From positions 749 to 64,748 of the forward strand of contig JAJPKE010000032.1 in the NCBI GenBank assembly GCA_021323855.1: 64,000 nucleotides of DNA. Direction: 5' to 3'. Under the pieces are notes generated by a model. The model was not told the DNA's origin. It was given only the letters and a program-made list of their open reading frames with translations, and did no database searches. This DNA comes from Chloroflexota bacterium (GTDB lineage: Bacteria; Chloroflexota; Ktedonobacteria; Ktedonobacterales; JADMIN01). Of this stretch, positions 6,484-19,232 are shown piece by piece (the stretch's first letter is position 1; the number at the start of each line of letters is the position of its first letter). Position numbers and translations under genes: made by a program.

Positions 6484-7305
6484 TTAGGTTGGCGCGAGTC
6501 GAAAGTCGCAGACAATTACTGGATAGTCTCGCTCTTTGTGGAACCCCAATTTCAAGGCAGTGGCTATCGAGGGTTCGTTGGTGGCCCAGCAATGCCAGCC
6601 AATCTCCGTTGCGCCCTGGGCAAATGCCCGCTTGATAACCGCTGACGCGACATGCGTAGCAATACCTTGTCGCTGATAGGCTGCGATAGTTTCGATACCC
6701 AGTTCATAGCGAGTCCGATACTGGTACTCGGCCAGGCACCAGCCAACGAGCTGGCGACCATCCTGGGCACAGAAGCCGAAATGGTGACGGAAAAAGTATT
6801 CAAGCGACGGACTTTCTGAATGGACTTCTTCTATCAACAGATCTCGGTTCACCAGTGAGGCATCGTTGAGCAAGCTCTGGGAAATTTGCGTCAGGACGAT
6901 AGCTGCTGGCAGAGGCGCAGTGAGTGGCTCGACTGGTTCTGTCAGGCGGTAATACTGTCGTAAAACCCTGTTCGTTCCCAACCCTTGAAGGGCCTGTTCG
7001 ATGGTATATTGCCAGGCATCTGATGGGTAACACACCATAAACCAGTAGCGATTGGCAACAGTTGGTTGGTAGAGCAGGTGAATGACCTCTGCGAGCAGGG
7101 AAGCCGATGGCGCGCCGCCCACAAAGACGTGATACTGGTTCGACGGGATCAAGATAGCAACAGTTGGGCTGCTGGGATCGTCAACATAGACCTTTCCTGG
7201 CAGTATTCCACTCAGGACGCTCGGCACTGCCAGATGGTACGCGCTCGTCTCCTCGAAGAGATCGGAGACCGACGGATAGGCGTTTGGTTCCAATAAGAAA
7301 GGCAT
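6484..7305 (-). CDS. GNAT family acetyltransferase (YdfB-like)
   Basis: ELGIETIAAYQRQGIAT acetyl-CoA motif and WHCWATNEPSIATALKLGF; start MPFLLEP at 7305 after GGAG. Confidence 0.85.
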   Translation of the reverse strand: MPFLLEPNAYPSVSDLFEETSAYHLAVPSVLSGILPGKVYVDDPSSPTVAILIPSNQYHVFVGGAPSASLLAEVIHLLYQPTVANRYWFMVCYPSDAWQYTIEQALQGLGTNRVLRQYYRLTEPVEPLTAPLPAAIVLTQISQSLLNDASLVNRDLLIEEVHSESPSLEYFFRHHFGFCAQDGRQLVGWCLAEYQYRTRYELGIETIAAYQRQGIATHVASAVIKRAFAQGATEIGWHCWATNEPSIATALKLGFHKERDYPVIVCDFRLAPT

Positions 7306-7545
7306 CGAGATGCTCCACGTGAGGTTGAGGCTCACACCGATCTGGCTGGGTCCTATCGTTATTGGCGCAATACAGGAAATGTGCATCCTGTCTCGGCCAA
7401 GATCAATGGCCCAAGACGATGGGAAAATAGACAAGCGGGCGTGGTGGAGCAACAGTCTTCACGAGAGGGGGCAGAGGGAGCGAGAACGAGGACAGCATGA
7501 ACAATCTAAGCGATCTATTTGTGAACAACAGGCAGTGAACACAAA

Positions 7546-11603: not shown

Positions 11604-12179
11604 ATGGAGAGCATAAGCGACGAGCAATTGCTGGCTGCCGTGCTGGCTGGCGACATGCAGGCGCTGACCGTCCTGGTTGAACGCTACCAGCAGCCGTTGA
11701 CCAATTATCTCGACCGGTTGACCGGCGGGGACTGGTCGCTGGCGCAGGACCTGACGCAAGAGACGTTTCTGCGCGTGCTGCGCTATCACGCCTCGCGTGG
11801 CAGCCGCCCATTCAGACCGTGGCTCTATGCCATCGCCACTAATCTCGCCCGCGATCACTTCAAGTCGGCGGCGGTCCGGCGCGCGCTTTCCTTCGATGCG
11901 CCGCAATTCGAGCCGTGTGAAGATGAGCGCGCCGGGCCAGAGAGCCAGGCGCTGGCAGCAGAGCAGCGAACGACCATCATCGCGGCGTTTTGCACGCTCA
12001 GCAGCGAATACCGCGCGGTTCTGCTGCTGCGCTTCTATAGCGAGATGAGCCTGCAAGAGGTTGCCGATATTCTCAATATTCCGCTGGGCACCGTCAAATC
12101 GCGGCTTTCGGTTGGCCTGAGCCGTCTACGCAAGACGCTTGCCGCCGCTGAGGGCACCAGCCAGGGAGTATTCTCATGA
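11604..12179 (+). CDS. ECF RNA polymerase sigma factor
   Basis: Region 2 (AQDLTQETFLR..FRPWLYAIATNLARD) and region 4 (MSLQEVADILNIPLGTVKSRL). Confidence 0.95.
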   Translation: MESISDEQLLAAVLAGDMQALTVLVERYQQPLTNYLDRLTGGDWSLAQDLTQETFLRVLRYHASRGSRPFRPWLYAIATNLARDHFKSAAVRRALSFDAPQFEPCEDERAGPESQALAAEQRTTIIAAFCTLSSEYRAVLLLRFYSEMSLQEVADILNIPLGTVKSRLSVGLSRLRKTLAAAEGTSQGVFS

Positions 12180-14178: not shown

Positions 14179-15054
14179 ATGGAACTAGCAATTGATAACG
14201 TGGGCCGGCAATATGGAACTGCCTGGGCAGTGCGTGATATTTCACTGCGCTGTGGCCCGGAGCTGGTCGCTCTGATCGGCCCCAACGGCGCGGGCAAGAC
14301 GACGCTGATGCGTATGATTGCGACATTGCTCGAACCAACCACTGGCAGCATTACCTGGAATGGCATGGATACGCACACGCACGGCAGTCAGTTGCGCCAT
14401 GTTCTCGGCTATCTGCCGCAGGAGTTCGGCATCTATCCGGAGTTTACGGGCCGGCAATTCCTGCGTTATCTGGCTGCTATGAAGGGCTTGCCGCGCGATC
14501 TGGCAAACCGGCGTGTTGACGCGATGCTGGAACTGGTGAATATGGAGCGCGCGGCAGACAACCGGCTGACCACCTATTCCGGCGGCATGAAGCAGCGCAT
14601 CGGCATCGCCCAGGCGCTCTTGAACGATCCCGAATTGCTGATCGTGGATGAGCCGACAGCGGGGTTGGACCCCGAAGAGCGGGTACGTTTCCGCACGTTA
14701 CTCGCCAGCCTGACCGCTGACCGCATCATCCTGCTCTCGACGCATATCGTCGGCGATGTCGAGGCGGTTGCGGCGCGGCTCGTCATCATGAAAGATGGGC
14801 GCCTGCTGACGGATACGACGCCTGAAACGTTGCTGGCGCGCGCTCAGGGGCGGGTCTGGACGGTGACGGTTGACCCGGCCACGGCGCAGCACATACAGCA
14901 GACACAACTCGTCAGTGCGATGATTCAACGTCCGGGTGGCATTTATCTGCGCATCGTCGGTGAGCAGCGCCCACACGATGCCGCTGTGGTGGATACGCCC
15001 AATCTCGAAGACGCCTATCTCCTGGCGACGAAAGAAGCGCCTGCGCTGGCGTGA
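14179..15054 (+). CDS. ABC transporter ATP-binding protein
   Basis: GPNGAGKT, YSGGMKQR, LIVDEPTAGLD, LSTH. Confidence 0.95.
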   Translation: MELAIDNVGRQYGTAWAVRDISLRCGPELVALIGPNGAGKTTLMRMIATLLEPTTGSITWNGMDTHTHGSQLRHVLGYLPQEFGIYPEFTGRQFLRYLAAMKGLPRDLANRRVDAMLELVNMERAADNRLTTYSGGMKQRIGIAQALLNDPELLIVDEPTAGLDPEERVRFRTLLASLTADRIILLSTHIVGDVEAVAARLVIMKDGRLLTDTTPETLLARAQGRVWTVTVDPATAQHIQQTQLVSAMIQRPGGIYLRIVGEQRPHDAAVVDTPNLEDAYLLATKEAPALA

Positions 15055-15092
15055 CCTCACCCCCTGACCCCCTCTCCCGCGAGGAGAGGGGG
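15055..15092 (+). repeat. REP-like element, family B (CCTCACCCC..CCCCTCTCC-N-GGAGAGGGG)
   Basis: Directly after the stop codon; similar copies at 49607 (inverted) and 61254. Confidence 0.7.
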
Positions 15093-15252
15093 AACCATGT
15101 CTCACCTGATGGTGTGATGACACACACACTATCCTCCTGTTGAAACCTCTTTTACTGGCAGAGAGCGTGTCACACCTGCCGCGATATGCTATTGTTTAGA
15201 GAGAGTATTGCTTGTGATGGCATGAGATGGCGAGCGGTCAGGAGTGTGTGAT

Positions 15253-15585
15253 ATGCCACGAATGGTTCAGTGCGAGAAGCTTGGCCGTGAGTTGCCAGGG
15301 CTGGAGAGGCCACCGATTCCGGGCGAATTAGGGCAGCGTATCTACGAACACATCTCTCAGCAGGCATGGGATATGTGGCAGGAGCAGTCGCGTCTGCTCA
15401 TCAACCACTATGGGCTGAATCTGGCCGATCCGGATGCGCGCCAGATTTTGCGGCAGCAGATGGAAGAGTTTCTCTTTGGTGAGAATGCGCGCATGCCCGA
15501 AGGATGGGTGCCCGAAGGCCAGGGCGGCAAAGGTGGCGGCGCTCCGGCTGCCAAAGGTGGCGGCGCGCCCGCGCGTAAGAAATAG
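15253..15585 (+). CDS. yggX: Fe(II)-trafficking / oxidative damage protection protein YggX
   Basis: MPRMVQCEKLG..PGELGQRIYEHISQQAW..LLINHYGLN..ARQIL..QMEEFLF; Gly/Lys-rich duplicated tail (KGGGAPA x2). Confidence 0.9.
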   Translation: MPRMVQCEKLGRELPGLERPPIPGELGQRIYEHISQQAWDMWQEQSRLLINHYGLNLADPDARQILRQQMEEFLFGENARMPEGWVPEGQGGKGGGAPAAKGGGAPARKK

Positions 15586-15599
15586 TCAGTAGTCCAGAC

Positions 15600-17051
15600 A
15601 TGAAAGCACCAGGCGACATTCTCCTGATCTCCTGCTATGAACTGGGCCATCAGCCGCTGAATCTGGCTTCGCCACTGGCCGTGCTGCGTCAGGCTGGCTA
15701 TGCGCCGGTTGCCGTGGATACCTCGGTGGATACGCTGGATGACGCCGCCATTCGCGCCGCGCGGCTGGTCGCTATCTCCGTCCCCATGCACACGGCGCTG
15801 CGGCTCGGCGTCGCCATCGCAGAGCGCGTGCGGCTGCTGAATCCGGCGGCGCATATCTGTTTCTATGGCCTCTATGCCTCGCTGAACGGCGATTACCTCT
15901 TGCGTGAGTATGCGGACTCGGTGATCGGCGGCGAATTCGAGGAGGCGCTGCTTGCGCTCGCGCAGGCGCTCGCATCTGGTGAGCCGCTGGCCATCCCTGG
16001 CGTGCGCACGCGCGACGTAGCGGCAGCGCCCATTCTGAAGCGGCTGCCGTTCGTCCAGCCGGCCCGCGAGACGCTCCCTGCAGGCACCCGCTACGCTTAT
16101 CTGGTGCGCGACGGGCGGGCGGTGCGCGCGGGCTATGTGGAGGCCAGCCGGGGCTGCCTGCACACCTGCCGCCACTGCCCGATCACGCCGGTCTATGGCG
16201 GGCGCTTCTTCGTGGTGCCGCGCGAGATCGTGCTGGAAGATATTCGCGCGCAGGTGCGGCGCGGCGCGCGGCACATCACATTTGGCGACCCCGATTTCCT
16301 CAACGGTCCCGGTCACTCGCTGGCCATCATGCGCGCGCTGCATCAGGAGTTTCCTGATGTCACCTTCGACGCGACGATCAAGATCGAGCATATCCTCGAA
16401 CGGCGCGACCTCTTCCCGGAACTGGCGGCGCTCGGCTGTGCGTTTGTCGTCTCGGCGGTGGAATCGTTGAGCGAGGAAGTGCTGCGCCATCTGAAGAAGG
16501 GCCACACCCGCGCGGACTTCGCGGAGGCGCTGGCGATTCTGGACGCCGCTGGTATCCCGATGCGCCCGACCTTCGTTGCCTTCACACCCTGGACCACGCC
16601 ACGCGATTATCTGGAGGTGCTGGCGTTCATCGCAGAGCATGACTTAGTTGGGCATGTAGACCCCATCCAATATGCCATTCGCCTGCTGGTGCCGCCCGGC
16701 TCGGCGCTGCTCGAAGAAGCTGACGCCGCCGACTGGTTGGGTCCGCTGGATGAGGCGGCCTTCACCTATCGCTGGGACCATCCGAATCCCCAGATGGATG
16801 CGCTCCAGCGCGAAGTGACGGCATTGGCGGAACGGGCGGCGCGCGAGCAATGGGACCACGAGACGGCCTTCGAGGAGGTTTGTGCGCTGGCGGAGGCGTA
16901 TCTCGGCGAGCCAGTGCCCGTGCCACAGGGCGTCTATGCGCGCGGCGGCGTGCGGACGGCGCGGCGACCTGTGCCGCACCTCAGCGAGCCGTGGTTCTGC
17001 TGAGCAGAGCCAACATCGGGCCAGTTGGGTCCCCTCATCCCCCGCCTCTAA
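15600..17051 (+). CDS. CUAEP/CCAEP-tail radical SAM selenoprotein (B12-binding-like N-terminal domain); Sec at TGA 17001-17003
   Basis: ASRGCLHTCRHC CxxxCxxC motif. Reading through the TGA gives PHLSEPWFC-U-AEPTSGQLGPLIPRL-TAA, which matches the family's C(U/C)AEP tail. Confidence 0.85.
17004..17031 (+). promoter_or_regulatory. Candidate bacterial SECIS hairpin
   Basis: GAGCCAAC-ATCGGGCCA-GTTGGGTC stem-loop immediately 3' of the UGA, with loop Gs 15-17 nt downstream of it. Confidence 0.55.
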
Positions 17052-17179
17052 CTGACGCGAGCAGTAACGTACTGCAACAAAGCTGGGGCTTACCTTCACA
17101 ACCCCTCATGACCACTTCAGAAACGATCAGAGAGAATAGGCCGTTGTATAGAGCGATGGCCTAACGCAATAGTGAGGTA

Positions 17180-18442
17180 GTGAAGATGGCGCTTCCCCAA
17201 CAAGAAGATGCAGACAAATCAGGGATACTAGAGGATTTCCTTAGTGACCCTGGATATCTGTATTTCTTGATTCAGGGCGACTCTGAACAAGTCCTACAGC
17301 GATTGCCAGATCATGCGGTTGATATGTGCATCACTAGCCCGCCTTATTGGGGCCAACGAAAATATGAGGGGGAAAGTGCATTAGGAAACGAGCCTCGCTG
17401 GCAAGAGTATGTTACACATCTCATGAGTATTTTTCGACATTTGAAGCGAGTGCTCAAGCCGGACGGTTCATTCTGGCTCAATATTGGTGACACCTATGTA
17501 AAAAAGAATCTTATGGGAATTCCCTGGCGTGTTGCCTTAGCGCTACAAGATGACGGCTGGATCTTACGCAATGCGGTGGTCTGGGACAAGATGAAGGGCA
17601 GCCCAGACAATGCCAAAGACAAGTTGCGCAATGTTCACGAAGAACTTTTCCACTTCGTTCTTCAACCCACGTATTATTATGACGTTGATGCTATTCGCAA
17701 CGAACCAGGAAAGCCCTATTACAGGGATGGCAGAATTGTTACGCCTACCGGCGTCAGCGGCGCAAAATATGAGCAGCAAATCCGCAAAAGCAAGGTTCTT
17801 AGCGAAACCGAGAAGGAGGCGGCGCTTGCCGCACTGGCTGATACGCTCCGCAAGGTAGAAGCTGGTGAGTTACCCGATTTTCGTATGGTCATCCGAGGTA
17901 CACAGCGATCAACCCACTCCGATTCCACCGAGTACAGTGGCAGGGCCAGCGAGCTAAAAGCGAAGGGTTTCGCCATTCTTCCCTATCACAAGAATGGGAC
18001 GAAGCCAGGCGATATATGGCATATTATACCAGAGGACCAGTGGCGCAAAGATGGCCATTACGCTGTGTTTCCATTAGATCTGTGCGAGTTGCCGATTAAG
18101 GCCACATGCCCAGTTGGGGGCATTGTTCTAGACCCTTTCGCTGGCACTGGCACCGCTTTAGTTGAGGCAGTTATGCTCGGTCGCCGGGGGATTGGCATTG
18201 ATTCCAGCCGGTCGTATCTGTCTGAAGCAGAGAAACGCCTCGCTCGTGTTTGCGCTGAGCAGCGCCAAAGAGTTCTGGCACAAGGGGGCCTCTTTGATGA
18301 TGGCACAATTTCCGCAGAGACAGAAAAGCACAAAATGCCCAGTCGAGTTCTACGGAAAGCTCGTCAGCCCAGAAAACCTCGCCGCGTTTCCTCCAATCTT
18401 GGCGGCGCAACATTGCCCATTCCTTTCGAGGACCTGCGTTAA
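17180..18442 (+). CDS. Site-specific DNA methyltransferase, beta class (probably N4-cytosine)
   Basis: Motif IV CITSPPYWG precedes motif I VLDPFAGTGT; lower GC than the flanks. Confidence 0.9.
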   Translation: MKMALPQQEDADKSGILEDFLSDPGYLYFLIQGDSEQVLQRLPDHAVDMCITSPPYWGQRKYEGESALGNEPRWQEYVTHLMSIFRHLKRVLKPDGSFWLNIGDTYVKKNLMGIPWRVALALQDDGWILRNAVVWDKMKGSPDNAKDKLRNVHEELFHFVLQPTYYYDVDAIRNEPGKPYYRDGRIVTPTGVSGAKYEQQIRKSKVLSETEKEAALAALADTLRKVEAGELPDFRMVIRGTQRSTHSDSTEYSGRASELKAKGFAILPYHKNGTKPGDIWHIIPEDQWRKDGHYAVFPLDLCELPIKATCPVGGIVLDPFAGTGTALVEAVMLGRRGIGIDSSRSYLSEAEKRLARVCAEQRQRVLAQGGLFDDGTISAETEKHKMPSRVLRKARQPRKPRRVSSNLGGATLPIPFEDLR

Positions 18443-19232
18443 GCAGCGAAAAAGCGATGCCGCACAAACTATTGGCGCATGCACAGTCGGTTTTCAAAGC
18501 AATTCTCTCATCATCTGTCCGCATCGCTTCATTGCTGGCGATCAGATTTTCCATGATTGCGTGGATTTGCTCACATCGGCAGGAGCTACGCCCACCTATC
18601 GCATCATACCCGAAGTGCAGATACCCGGCGGAAATGTTGACTATTTTCTCGTTGCTTCAAATGGGGATATTATTACAGATTATGTTGGTATCGAGATTCA
18701 GTCTCTTGATACAACCGGCTCAGGCGGTATCTGGGATGCCCGGCAGGATATAAATGCTGGTACACTGCACTCTTCCTATTCATACGGAATAAACTGGCGC
18801 ATGTCTGCCAAAACGATCCTTATGCAAATGCATCACAAATCTGAGTCGTTCGAAGGGTTGGGCAAAAAGCTTGTCCTTGTTGTACAGGCGGAGTTTTTTG
18901 CTTACATGGTGCGTGAGTTCAGTACCACTCATTTACGCGAAGCCTCGCCAGAAGACTCGGTTCACTTCCATATCTACGACATCTCGATCAGGGGAGATCA
19001 CCTGGAGCTTGCGATCAAGGAGCGGAAGAGTACGAGTGCTGCGGGTATCAACCAAATGCTGATGCTGGGGCGAGATGCGGGTATTGCTGATAACGATGTG
19101 AAGCATCTCATTCAAAACAAATGGTCAACCGGGCGCGATCTAGGAACCAGGACGCCCATTCAGGTCGAGCTTATTCATGAGGAGCGTGATACATCGAAAA
19201 GTCTCAGGATAGATGGAGACGAGGACTTCTAA
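18297..19232 (+). CDS. NotI-family type II restriction endonuclease
   Basis: Four-Cys metal site CPF..CVK..GACTV..ICPHRF and PD-(D/E)xK-type core GNVDYFLV..DYVGIEIQSLDTTG. ATG 18297 follows AAGGGGG. Confidence 0.8.
   Translation: MMAQFPQRQKSTKCPVEFYGKLVSPENLAAFPPILAAQHCPFLSRTCVKQRKSDAAQTIGACTVGFQSNSLIICPHRFIAGDQIFHDCVDLLTSAGATPTYRIIPEVQIPGGNVDYFLVASNGDIITDYVGIEIQSLDTTGSGGIWDARQDINAGTLHSSYSYGINWRMSAKTILMQMHHKSESFEGLGKKLVLVVQAEFFAYMVREFSTTHLREASPEDSVHFHIYDISIRGDHLELAIKERKSTSAAGINQMLMLGRDAGIADNDVKHLIQNKWSTGRDLGTRTPIQVELIHEERDTSKSLRIDGDEDF

What the first reader, a model, noticed from the sequence alone, without database searches (positions are those of the whole stretch)
15600..17051. Hidden selenoprotein: radical SAM enzyme with a C-U-A-E-P tail and SECIS-like hairpin
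Seen: the ORF-track stop (TGA 17001-17003) follows WFC. The frame continues AEPTSGQLGPLIPRL to TAA 17049-17051, giving a vicinal Cys-Sec pair, and a stem-loop with G-rich loop begins just after the UGA. Known: a CUAEP/CCAEP-tail radical SAM family exists in which this position is Sec or Cys. As I recall, it is related to the Cys-tailed arsenic-alkylating radical SAM ArsL, and its substrate is unknown. Inference: a Sec-dependent metalloid/organometallic-type enzyme. No ars genes or precursor peptide are adjacent, so the pathway here is undescribed.
Basis: partly seen in the sequence, partly recalled or inferred. Interest (0 to 1): 0.85.

Follow-up and report, generated by a model that had tools for sequence, protein, structure and literature searches.

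The report
Known Cys-Sec-tail radical SAM selenoprotein
The apparent stop codon of this radical SAM enzyme gene is almost certainly read as selenocysteine, but the enzyme belongs to an already catalogued family of unknown function, so the new part is only the set of conserved partner genes that hints at what it makes.

Summary
ORF 15600-17003 ends WFC-TGA and the frame continues AEPTSGQLGPLIPRL to TAA 17049-17051. The read-through protein scores 738 bits (cut-off 500) on NCBIfam NF040546, 'CUAEP/CCAEP-tail radical SAM (seleno)protein'. ArsL (NF040542) comes second at 314 bits, below its 450 cut-off.

- **Sec decoding:** the genome holds selA, selB, selD and tRNA-Sec.
- **Conservation:** 96 homologous loci read in full carry WFC-[U/C]-[A/S]-E-P.
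- **SECIS:** a hairpin 14 nt after the UGA covaries in 66 Sec forms (85% paired) and is lost in 25 Cys forms (44%).

So this is a real selenoprotein, but one already catalogued and ordinary for its order (35 of 41 genomes).

- A YggX-like Fe(II)-trafficking gene lies directly upstream in all 35 of those genomes.
- An Nfu-like gene takes its place in other phyla.
- An L-amino-acid-ligase-type ATP-grasp gene and DUF169 recur across phyla.

No ars genes recur nearby. The chemistry remains inferred. My best guess, at about 30%, is ArsL-like transfer of the SAM aminocarboxypropyl group to a soft atom held by the Cys-Sec tail.

The parts
15244..15585 (+). YggX-like Fe(II)-trafficking / 'oxidative damage protection' gene. 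The likely start is ATG 15253. It has an invariant Cys7 and a Gly/Lys-rich C-terminal extension, and it ends 14 nt before the rSAM start.
   Evidence: PF04362 at 128.4 bits and NF003817 at 137.3 bits. It lies upstream on the same strand in 20 of 20 loci and in 35 of 35 genomes of the order that have the rSAM. Alignment A5.
15600..17051 (+). CUAEP-tail radical SAM selenoprotein gene: 483 codons plus TAA, with UGA-Sec at codon 468.
   Evidence: NF040546 at 738 bits against a cut-off of 500. Pfam Radical_SAM at 54.8 bits and B12-binding at 28.4 bits, below its 32.1 cut-off. AF2 model with pLDDT 91.4.
16155..16178 (+). CX3CX2C radical SAM cluster motif (C186, C190, C193).
   Evidence: Invariant in 41 of 41 aligned family members.
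16974..17024 (+). Conserved tail motif P-[RH]-L-[TS]-E-x-W-F-C-U-[AS]-E-P-T-x-x-Q (residues 459-475). Cys467 is at 16998-17000 and Sec468 (TGA) at 17001-17003.
   Evidence: Column counts on A4, 41 sequences. Motif present.
16993..17011 (+). 8-bp hairpin with the UGA as its 3-nt loop (GGUUCUGC-UGA-GCAGAGCC). It is largely dictated by the WFC/AEP codons.
   Evidence: 98.1% of cells paired in 66 Sec forms and 96.5% in 25 Cys forms. The Ala wobble base is a purine in 62 of 66 Sec forms against 18 of 25 Cys forms.
17018..17032 (+). SECIS-type hairpin: a 5-bp stem in this window (5-7 bp in relatives) with loop AGUUG.
   Evidence: 6 of 7 pairs show changes on both sides. The inner five pairs are 89-100% paired in 66 Sec forms, against 44% for the whole helix in 25 Cys forms. 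At least 5 contiguous pairs in 57 of 66 Sec forms against 3 of 25 Cys forms.
17049..17051 (+). True stop codon, TAA.

Best explanation
**Shown.**
- Gene 15600-17051 encodes a 483-residue radical SAM enzyme of the curated family NF040546.
- Its codon 468 (UGA) is decoded as selenocysteine. Decoding is directed by a hairpin 14 nt downstream and by the genome's own SelA, SelB, SelD and tRNA-Sec.
- The protein has an N-terminal Rossmann (B12-binding-like) domain, a CX3CX2C radical SAM barrel, and a linker of low model confidence. It ends in an invariant tail, PxLxExWFC-U-AEPTxxQ.
- It is made together with a dedicated YggX-like iron-trafficking protein encoded 14 nt upstream.
- Across phyla that partner's place is taken by an Nfu-type Fe-S carrier. 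An L-amino-acid-ligase-type ATP-grasp enzyme travels with the pair.

**Inferred (about 30%).** Like its sister family ArsL, the enzyme cleaves SAM at the C-gamma-S bond and transfers the 3-amino-3-carboxypropyl group to a soft atom held by the vicinal Cys-Sec pair. The product would be a methionine-like 2-amino-4-X-butanoate, which the ATP-grasp ligase then joins to a second amino acid. YggX or Nfu would keep the oxygen-sensitive or self-damaging cluster loaded in these mostly aerobic bacteria. The identity of X is unknown.
For: **Identity**
- NF040546 at 738 bits against 500, matching 1-467 of 468 profile positions.
- C186, C190, C193, C467 and position 468 are invariant in 41 of 41 sequences.
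- Fold: pLDDT 91.4. The top Foldseek hits are AprD4, TsrM, MgmA and OxsB.

**Sec decoding**
- selB 309.9 bits, selA 556.4 bits, selD 378.6 bits, tRNA-Sec 64.3 bits with anticodon TCA.
- All 26 genomes of the order with the TGA form have a selA match. 3 of the 8 full-length Cys-form genomes have none.
- SECIS covariation is present in Sec forms and lost in Cys forms.

**Partners**
- YggX is present in exactly the same 35 of 41 genomes, one copy each, always directly upstream.
- The ATP-grasp gene is found in 34 of the 41, the same set minus G021, and lies within about 2.5 kb of the rSAM in 9 of them.
- Among the 80 loci from many phyla: YggX in 34, Nfu-like in 17 and never both, ATP-grasp in 28, DUF169 in 15.
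- The ATP-grasp gene's closest solved relative is the ligase BL00235 (E 2.7e-42). A review's table lists its products as Met-Gly and Met-Met.

**Chemistry by homology**
- ArsL is the sister family (314 bits over residues 7-408; the next family scores 52 bits).
- ArsL makes an ACP radical or Fe-C species, and its Cys-rich C-terminal tail binds the arsenic substrate (abstracts and passages read).
- Five Cys-form tails in one family of the order carry extra Cys pairs (SCCG...GCCS), as expected of a thiol-rich binding arm.
Against: - No biochemical datum exists for any member of the family.
- In the window's own genome the ATP-grasp gene lies on another contig (C24).
- 18 of the 80 loci show none of the four partner genes, some because their flanks are short.
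- The three-gene co-occurrence within the order rests on one or two loss events: family f4 (5 genomes) and G009, which is 71% complete. It is weak as statistics.
- No arsenic, mercury or selenium-metabolism gene recurs nearby.
- The family is near-universal in its order, which suits a housekeeping role better than an antibiotic or detoxification pathway.
- The tail has two soft ligands, against ArsL's three.
- The tail's placement in the model has only moderate confidence (pLDDT 51-74), and no coordinates were available to measure its distance to the cluster.
- Rfam holds no matching SECIS model, and single-sequence folding is not significant.
Confidence: 0.8

Rival explanations
1. Redox tail. 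The enzyme does canonical 5'-deoxyadenosyl radical chemistry. The Cys-Sec pair on a mobile C-terminal arm acts as a selenenylsulfide redox shuttle or hydrogen-atom donor, as the C-terminal Gly-Cys-Sec-Gly of mammalian thioredoxin reductase does (recalled), rather than as a substrate-binding site.
For: - Vicinal Cys-Sec sits after a linker of low model confidence (pLDDT 51 for residues 441-450).
- Sec and Cys are interchangeable across species (57 Sec and 23 Cys of 80 loci), as at many redox sites.
- The best structural match is AprD4, a 5'-dA-type enzyme.
- No metalloid genes lie nearby.
Against: - The nearest family by far is ArsL (314 bits against 52 for the next), whose tail binds substrate and whose SAM cleavage is non-canonical.
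- Some Cys forms have extra Cys pairs in their tails, which looks more like ligand multiplication than a two-electron couple.
Confidence: 0.25
2. Auxiliary site or sacrificial cluster. The tail Cys-Sec, together with the near-invariant C12 and C280, holds a second Fe-S cluster or an Fe/S/Se atom that is consumed or inserted during turnover. That would explain why an Fe donor (YggX) or an Fe-S carrier (Nfu) is always encoded alongside, as NfuA rebuilds the auxiliary cluster of lipoyl synthase (recalled).
For: - C12 is present in 39 of 41 sequences and C280 in 40 of 41, besides the three cluster cysteines and the tail pair.
- YggX and Nfu-like genes occupy the neighbouring slot in 51 of 80 loci and never occur together.
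- MiaB and RimO, which carry an auxiliary cluster, are among the structural matches.
Against: - In ArsL, deleting the tail leaves the iron and sulfur content unchanged, so the tail holds no auxiliary cluster there (passage read).
- I do not recall selenocysteine as an Fe-S ligand in any enzyme.
- The distances between C12, C280 and the tail could not be measured here.
Confidence: 0.15
3. A true arsenic enzyme: an ArsL isofunctional variant that alkylates As(III) or methylarsenite.
For: Sister family of ArsL. Vicinal soft ligands on a C-terminal tail. [quoted passage not shown]
Against: - It scores below the ArsL cut-off (314 against 450) and has no RCCLKC motif.
- No arsM, arsC, arsR or acr3 cluster occurs in 3 or more of the 76 neighbourhoods. 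An ArsB/CitMHS-type permease occurs in only 4 closely related loci.
- It is present in 35 of 41 genomes of an order with fixed iron-related partners, unlike an accessory resistance or antibiotic gene.
Confidence: 0.08
4. The UGA is a genuine stop. The protein ends at WFC, and the downstream conservation is RNA-level only.
For: The table-11 ORF ends there. The tail region is a stable hairpin region.
Against: - AEP is invariant with synonymous third-base variation.
- Cys codons replace the TGA in 23 of 80 loci, with the same downstream peptide.
- A complete Sec machinery is present.
- TGA forms occur only in genomes that have selA (26 of 26).
Confidence: 0.02

Closest known systems
NCBIfam NF040546, CUAEP/CCAEP-tail radical SAM (seleno)protein
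   Same: Full-length match above the curated cut-off (738 against 500 bits). Same CX3CX2C motif, same C-[U/C]-A-E-P tail, same Sec/Cys alternation.
   Different: Nothing: this is a member. The only print mention found, a passage of the 2022 preprint 10.1101/2022.07.06.499078, calls the family uncharacterized. That passage does not mention the SECIS element or the partner genes described here. The rest of the paper was not read and its supplements could not be opened.
ArsL, arsinothricin biosynthesis radical SAM enzyme (NF040542, RCCLKC-tail family)
   Same: Homologous over the whole core (residues 7-408, E 1.5e-93). Same CX3CX2C motif. A Cys-rich C-terminal tail follows the same core. In ArsL that tail binds the substrate arsenic, and SAM is cleaved to MTA plus an ACP species.
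   Different: Below the ArsL cut-off. The tail is WFC-U-AEP on a roughly 50-residue longer C-terminal region, not RCCLKC, with two soft ligands instead of three and Sec at one of them. The neighbours are not arsM or arsQ but YggX or Nfu, an ATP-grasp ligase and DUF169.
B12-binding-domain radical SAM enzymes with solved structures (AprD4 6fd2; TsrM 6wtf; MgmA 9ccb; OxsB 5ul3)
   Same: Same two-domain architecture, a Rossmann domain plus a radical SAM barrel. Foldseek E 1.5e-18 to 1.6e-16, TM 0.56-0.68.
   Different: 15-19% identity. None has a Cys-Sec tail. Whether this family binds cobalamin is unknown: the Pfam B12-binding score is 28.4, below the 32.1 cut-off, and the best match, AprD4, works without cobalamin (recalled).
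Bacterial SECIS elements, such as that of E. coli fdhF (recalled)
   Same: A hairpin inside the coding region, starting about 11-15 nt after the UGA, with G and U in the apical loop. It is kept only where Sec is used.
   Different: A short stem of 5-7 bp with a conserved AGUUN pentaloop. The loop overlaps a Gln codon that is also conserved in the protein (Q475 in 39 of 41). The UGA additionally sits in the loop of an upstream 8-bp hairpin.

Membership tests
NF040546 CUAEP/CCAEP-tail radical SAM (seleno)protein | Whole-protein HMM score at or above the curated cut-off (500 bits) | tested here: met
   738 bits, E 4e-222, protein residues 7-477 on profile positions 1-467 of 468.
NF040546 CUAEP/CCAEP-tail radical SAM (seleno)protein | C-terminal C-[U/C]-A-E-P motif | tested here: met
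   WFC-U-AEP at residues 465-471. Invariant in 41 of 41 aligned members apart from A/S at position 469.
NF040546 CUAEP/CCAEP-tail radical SAM (seleno)protein | Radical SAM CX3CX2C cluster motif | tested here: met
   C186, C190, C193. Pfam PF04055 at 54.8 bits.
Bacterial selenoprotein (SelB-dependent UGA decoding) | In-frame UGA aligned with Cys in homologues, and protein-level conservation beyond it | tested here: met
   14 TGA and 6 Cys of 20 loci. 57 TGA and 23 Cys of 80 loci. Synonymous variation in the AEP codons.
Bacterial selenoprotein (SelB-dependent UGA decoding) | SECIS hairpin shortly downstream of the UGA | tested here: met
   Helix at 17018-17022 with 17028-17032. 6 of 7 alignment pairs have compensatory changes. 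85.1% paired in Sec forms against 44.0% in Cys forms. No Rfam model matches.
Bacterial selenoprotein (SelB-dependent UGA decoding) | selA, selB, selC (tRNA-Sec) and selD in the genome | tested here: met
   All four score over their cut-offs. ARAGORN calls tRNA-SeC with anticodon tca.
Bacterial selenoprotein (SelB-dependent UGA decoding) | Selenium actually incorporated at residue 468 | not testable with these tools
   Needs 75Se labelling or mass spectrometry of the C-terminal peptide.
ArsL (NF040542) | HMM score at or above 450 bits | tested here: not met
   314.3 bits. No other candidate in the genome.
ArsL (NF040542) | C-terminal RCCLKC arsenic-binding motif | tested here: not met
   The tail is ...PHLSEPWFCUAEPTSGQLGPLIPRL.
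ArsL (NF040542) | Placement in an ars operon with arsM and arsQ | tested here: not met
   Neighbours within 4 kb are a sigma factor, an ABC-2 transporter, YggX and a restriction-modification pair. No ars family occurs among neighbour clusters found in 3 or more of the 76 loci, except an ArsB/CitMHS-type permease in 4 related loci.
ArsL (NF040542) | SAM cleaved to MTA plus an ACP radical or Fe-C species | not testable with these tools
   Needs enzyme assays.
Cobalamin-dependent (class B) radical SAM enzymes | N-terminal cobalamin-binding Rossmann domain | tested here: inconclusive
   PF02310 at 28.4 bits, below the 32.1 cut-off. The fold matches both cobalamin enzymes (TsrM, OxsB) and AprD4. 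Cofactor binding is not testable here.

The most novel reading that the evidence does not exclude
YggX (or Nfu), the Cys-Sec radical SAM enzyme and an L-amino-acid-ligase-type ATP-grasp enzyme form an undescribed pathway. It is widespread in aerobic soil and water bacteria: Chloroflexota, Nitrospirota, Acidobacteriota, Planctomycetota, Gemmatimonadota and Methylomirabilota. In it a selenocysteine-dependent, ArsL-like enzyme would forge a carbon-heteroatom bond, making a methionine-like 2-amino-4-X-butanoate that is then built into a dipeptide. That would be the first characterised Sec-dependent radical SAM enzyme and a new small-molecule class.
Probability: 0.2. Interest if true: 0.75.

Novelty: new member of a known kind. 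Interest (0 to 1): 0.4.

Why it matters
As reported, the finding is a correct re-discovery. NCBI's annotation models already name this family, Sec included, and the gene is standard equipment in its order. Its value is practical: a naive ORF call truncates the protein exactly at its most conserved, probably catalytic, residue pair.

Beyond that, the family is an orphan. It is the closest relative of ArsL, one of the few radical SAM enzymes known to use the aminocarboxypropyl half of SAM. It carries one of the rare Cys-Sec dyads, and it sits in hundreds of genomes of environmentally important aerobes, including Nitrospira.

The partner genes found here turn 'function unknown' into assayable hypotheses. 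They are a dedicated iron or Fe-S helper, swapped between YggX and Nfu across phyla, a ligase related to a Met-specific one, and DUF169.

Tried and rejected
- **Rfam scan** of 16900-17200 at E up to 10: only two chance lncRNA hits and no SECIS family.
- **Single-sequence folding:** not better than shuffles. An alternative CCAAC/GUUGG helix in the window's own sequence is not supported by the alignment, because its third pair would need a purine at a column that is mostly C or G/C/A/T. I judged this by eye from A2 and did not count it.
- **A second Sec at the end of the long Cys-rich tails** of one family. These tails end at TGA in 4 of 5 distinct sequences. I rejected the idea because the read-through is not conserved and one tail ends in TAA.
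- **Promoter and terminator scan** of 14900-17300: nothing informative.
- **Model coordinates:** the predicted structure is not available to scripts, so no cluster-to-tail distance could be measured.
- **Co-fold of the rSAM with YggX:** the job was not accepted and was not run, so binding is untested.
- **One large protein alignment:** too big to print. I replaced it with a 41-row subset of the roughly 90 available sequences: all 25 Cys forms except one duplicate row, plus 16 Sec forms chosen by me for spread.
- **DUF169 representative:** no sequence relative in the PDB.
- **Glutamine synthetase** (4 loci) and an **ArsB/CitMHS-type permease** (4 loci) near the gene. Both occur only in close relatives, so I treated them as local synteny.
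Full report
**1. The observation**

The table-11 ORF runs from 15600 to 17003 (467 aa) and ends ...SEPWFC-TGA, with the TGA at 17001-17003. Read with TGA as U, the frame continues AEPTSGQLGPLIPRL to TAA 17049-17051, giving a 483-residue protein with Cys467-Sec468.

**2. What the protein is**

- On NCBIfam the read-through protein scores 738 bits (E 4e-222) on NF040546, 'CUAEP/CCAEP-tail radical SAM (seleno)protein'. The curated cut-off is 500, and the match covers profile positions 1-467 of 468.
- The second hit is NF040542, ArsL, at 314 bits, below its 450 cut-off and covering residues 7-408 only.
- The third family (HpnR) scores 52 bits. The family and ArsL are therefore each other's nearest named relatives by a wide margin.
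- Pfam sees Radical_SAM (54.8 bits) and a sub-threshold B12-binding domain (28.4 against 32.1).
- An AlphaFold2 model built on a 41-sequence alignment is confident (mean pLDDT 91.4, pTM 0.90), except for residues 441-483. There the 10-residue block means are 51, 69, 74 and 55, and the last three residues average 37. The block holding the motif is the best of these.
- Foldseek puts the model next to AprD4 (E 1.5e-18, TM 0.68), TsrM, MgmA and OxsB. These share the architecture of a Rossmann domain followed by a radical SAM barrel.
- By sequence, the PDB holds only distant relatives (9ccb at E 1.8e-9).

**3. Is the UGA read as Sec?** Four lines of evidence agree.

(a) *Machinery.* The window's genome has all four components over their cut-offs:

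| Component | Contig | Bits |
|---|---|---|
| selB | C43 | 309.9 |
| selA | C38 | 556.4 |
| selD (itself with one in-frame TGA) | C9 | 378.6 |
| tRNA-Sec (ARAGORN: tRNA-SeC, anticodon tca) | C43 | 64.3 |

(b) *Homologues.*
- Of 41 genomes of the same order, 35 have the family over the cut-off. By the stops_inside column, 26 carry one in-frame TGA, 8 are full length without a stop, and 1 is cut short.
- All 20 loci I read in detail carry WFC-[TGA/TGY]-AEP: 14 TGA and 6 Cys.
- A pattern scan of one genome per species found at least 598 stretches that encode a relative. The best 80 loci come from records titled as Chloroflexota, Nitrospirota, Acidobacteriota, Planctomycetota, Gemmatimonadota, Rokubacteria/Methylomirabilia, Poribacteria and Polyangia.
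- Of these 80, 57 have TGA. That is 54 read in the walked frame, L101 cut at its contig end, and L047 and L049 behind a frame shift in the variable linker. The other 23 have Cys: 22 plus L104, which reads CCVEP.
- Four of the 80 duplicate loci of the first set over the 120 nt compared.

(c) *Translation of the tail.* Position 469 is Ala in 39 of 41 sequences and Ser in 2. E470 and P471 are invariant, T472 is kept in 37 of 41 and Q475 in 39 of 41. The third base of the Pro codon takes all four values in the Sec forms.

(d) *Consistency with selA.* All 26 genomes with the TGA form have a selA match (25 over the cut-off; G012 has a partial match at a contig edge). Three of the eight Cys-form genomes (G018, G021, G024) show none.

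**4. The RNA**

I aligned 57 nt around the codon from 66 distinct Sec forms (A2) and 25 distinct Cys forms (A3).

*Helix 2.*
- It spans alignment columns 28-34 and 40-46, which in the window are 17016-17022 and 17028-17034. Five of its pairs form in this window.
- In Sec forms 85.1% of cells are paired, and 6 of 7 pairs show changes on both sides. The inner five pairs are paired in 89-100% of sequences.
- No shuffle of 500 reached the observed pairing or covariation score. Every slid register falls to 53% pairing or less.
- In Cys forms the same columns are 44.0% paired and do not differ from shuffles.
- At least five contiguous pairs occur in 57 of 66 Sec forms against 3 of 25 Cys forms. The loop reads AGUUN in 57 of 66 Sec forms.

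This is the signature of an RNA element kept only where Sec is used. The stem starts 12-14 nt after the UGA, which fits what I recall of bacterial SECIS rules.

*Caveats.*
- The sequences are related, so the shuffle counts are not probabilities.
- The Gln codon in the loop is also constrained by the protein.
- Rfam has no matching model.
- The window's RNA alone folds no better than shuffles (z -0.79).

*Helix 1.* Here the UGA is the loop of an 8-bp stem. It is equally paired in both sets (98.1% and 96.5%) because the WFC and AEP codons happen to be complementary. Only wobble choices differ: Ala GCR in 62 of 66 Sec forms against 18 of 25 Cys forms, and Phe UUC in 61 of 66 against 10 of 25. Those differences are confounded with phylogeny and GC content. 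I record it as unexplained.

**5. Surroundings in the window**

- *Upstream:* an ECF sigma factor (11604-12179), an unassigned 301-aa ORF, an ABC-2 permease and an ABC ATPase. Then comes a YggX-like gene, 15244-15585 (PF04362 128 bits; NF003817 137 bits), which ends 14 nt before the rSAM start.
- *Downstream:* an N6/N4 DNA methylase (17180-18442) and a NotI-like endonuclease ORF. GC falls from 0.65-0.67 across the rSAM to 0.47-0.54 there. This looks like an unrelated, probably acquired, restriction-modification pair.
- No ars gene or short precursor-like ORF stands out.

**6. Partners across genomes**

*Within the order.*
- PF04362 is found in 35 of 41 genomes, exactly the 35 that have the rSAM.
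- Each has one copy, always directly upstream on the same strand. I compared the coordinates; the gaps between the matches are about 68-367 nt.
- The window genome's ATP-grasp gene is on C24:40211-41479 (domains ATP-grasp_4, LAL_C2 and ATPgrasp_N). Orthologues at E of 1e-30 or better occur in 34 of 41 genomes. That is the same set minus G021, which is 76% complete.
- The ATP-grasp gene lies within about 2.5 kb of the rSAM in 9 of those genomes.
- All three genes were not found in the five genomes of family f4 (87-95% complete) or in G009 (71% complete). This is at most two independent events, so it is suggestive only.

*Among the 80 cross-phylum loci* (tblastn with representatives):

| Partner | Loci of 80 | Where |
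|---|---|---|
| YggX | 34 | 32 of 38 Chloroflexota-titled loci, one Gemmatimonadota-titled, one Polyangia |
| Nfu-like (NifU + Nfu_N domains) | 17 | 15 directly downstream on the same strand; Acidobacteriota, Rokubacteria, some Nitrospirota and Planctomycetota |
| ATP-grasp ligase | 28 | several phyla |
| DUF169 | 15 | mostly Nitrospirota and Planctomycetota |
| none of the four | 18 | some with short flanks |

YggX and Nfu never occur at the same locus (0 of 51).

An Atg22-like MFS transporter follows in 6 Blastocatellia-type loci. No arsM-, arsC-, arsR- or acr3-type family appears among neighbour clusters present in 3 or more loci. The exception is an ArsB/CitMHS-type permease in 4 closely related loci.

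The ligase's closest solved relative is BL00235 (3vot, E 2.7e-42, full length). A review's table lists its products as Met-Gly and Met-Met (passages read).

**7. How it most likely works**

*Shown.* The gene encodes a Sec-containing member of NF040546, has a functional-looking SECIS, and forms a fixed gene pair with YggX.

*Inferred from ArsL.* I read the abstracts of both preprints, section 6 of one and passages of the other.
- ArsL cleaves SAM to methylthioadenosine and a 3-amino-3-carboxypropyl species.
- Its Cys-rich C-terminal tail binds the arsenic that receives the group.
- Tail deletion abolishes product formation but not SAM cleavage.

By analogy, the invariant tail here would deliver a soft atom bound to Cys467-Sec468 to the SAM site. 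The product would be a methionine-like amino acid, and a ligase related to a Met-specific one is a sensible next enzyme.

YggX and Nfu would act as interchangeable iron or Fe-S helpers. That would fit a cluster that is damaged by oxygen or by the chemistry itself. Their known roles are recalled, not tested here.

One family of the order has Cys forms whose tails carry two further Cys pairs. This fits a binding arm that makes up for the missing selenol.

I put this chain at about 30%. The rivals are a redox or hydrogen-donor tail with canonical chemistry (about 25%), an auxiliary or sacrificial site that also involves C12 and C280 (about 15%), and a true arsenic enzyme (about 8%).

*Against the leading idea.*
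- The gene is near-universal in its order.
- No metalloid genes lie nearby.
- The ligase is unlinked in this genome.
- No experiment exists on any member of the family.

**8. Comparison with what is known, and novelty**

The family, its tail and its Sec/Cys position are curated in NCBIfam. One preprint names it as an uncharacterized CU-motif selenoprotein. Full-text searches for 'CUAEP', 'CCAEP' and 'NF040546' found no other relevant paper. A search for YggX with 'radical SAM' and 'selenocysteine' found nothing on this family.

The gene is therefore a new member of a known kind. It is not ArsL, because three defining features were tested and not met.

These searches turned up no print mention of the following:
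- the covarying SECIS and its loss in Cys forms;
- the YggX/Nfu alternation;
- the ATP-grasp and DUF169 partners.

**9. Verdict**

Interest is moderate (0.4): ordinary as a discovery, useful as a lead into an orphan Sec enzyme family.

Noticed in passing
window 16993-17011: The UGA-Sec codon sits as the 3-nt loop of an 8-bp hairpin formed by the WFC and AEP codons, which are near-perfect reverse complements. Sec forms choose the pairing or stronger wobble bases more often than Cys forms: Ala GCR in 62 of 66 against 18 of 25, and Phe UUC in 61 of 66 against 10 of 25. It is not settled whether this helps Sec decoding or only reflects GC content and phylogeny.
   Followed up: partly
window 17180-19232: An N6/N4 DNA methylase (PF01555, 148 bits) and an overlapping ORF with a weak NotI-endonuclease match (29.3 bits) lie directly after the rSAM gene. 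GC drops there to 0.47-0.54 from 0.65-0.67. This is probably an acquired restriction-modification pair. It is absent from the relatives' loci.
   Followed up: partly
G000:C9:25597-26529 (-) and G000:C15:60948-62474 (+): Two more candidate selenoproteins in the same genome: selD itself has one in-frame TGA, and a molybdopterin oxidoreductase (a 1091-aa open frame, perhaps a formate dehydrogenase) has one. The Sec machinery is therefore not kept for the rSAM alone.
   Followed up: no
L021, L022, L023/L091, L025, L074 (C-terminal tails): Cys forms of one family of the order have tails 20-25 residues longer that carry two extra vicinal Cys pairs (for example ...SCCG...GCCSVGH). Four of the five distinct sequences end at TGA, but the read-through is not conserved, so these are real stops.
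   Followed up: yes
window 15520-15582; alignment A5: The YggX-like proteins of this group carry a Gly/Ala/Pro/Lys-rich C-terminal extension (...KGGGAPAAKGGGAPARKK) lying beyond the 88-position Pfam Iron_traffic profile. Cys7 is invariant in 28 of 28.
   Followed up: no
L047 and L049, about 7240-7410: In two loci from long-contig metagenome bins the rSAM body and its WFC-TGA-AEP tail are in different frames, with the shift inside the variable linker. This could be an assembly indel or a real frameshift; it is not resolved.
   Followed up: partly
L121 9542-11759 (G000:C24): In the window's genome the partner-type ATP-grasp ligase sits next to an unassigned 262-aa ORF and a PDZ/Radical_SAM_2/DUF512 protein. 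Any link to the pathway is unknown.
   Followed up: no
L042 10917-12284 and related loci: A glutamine synthetase gene lies about 3.5 kb downstream of the rSAM in 4 closely related loci. This is curious because the ArsL product arsinothricin inhibits glutamine synthetase, but it is probably local synteny.
   Followed up: no
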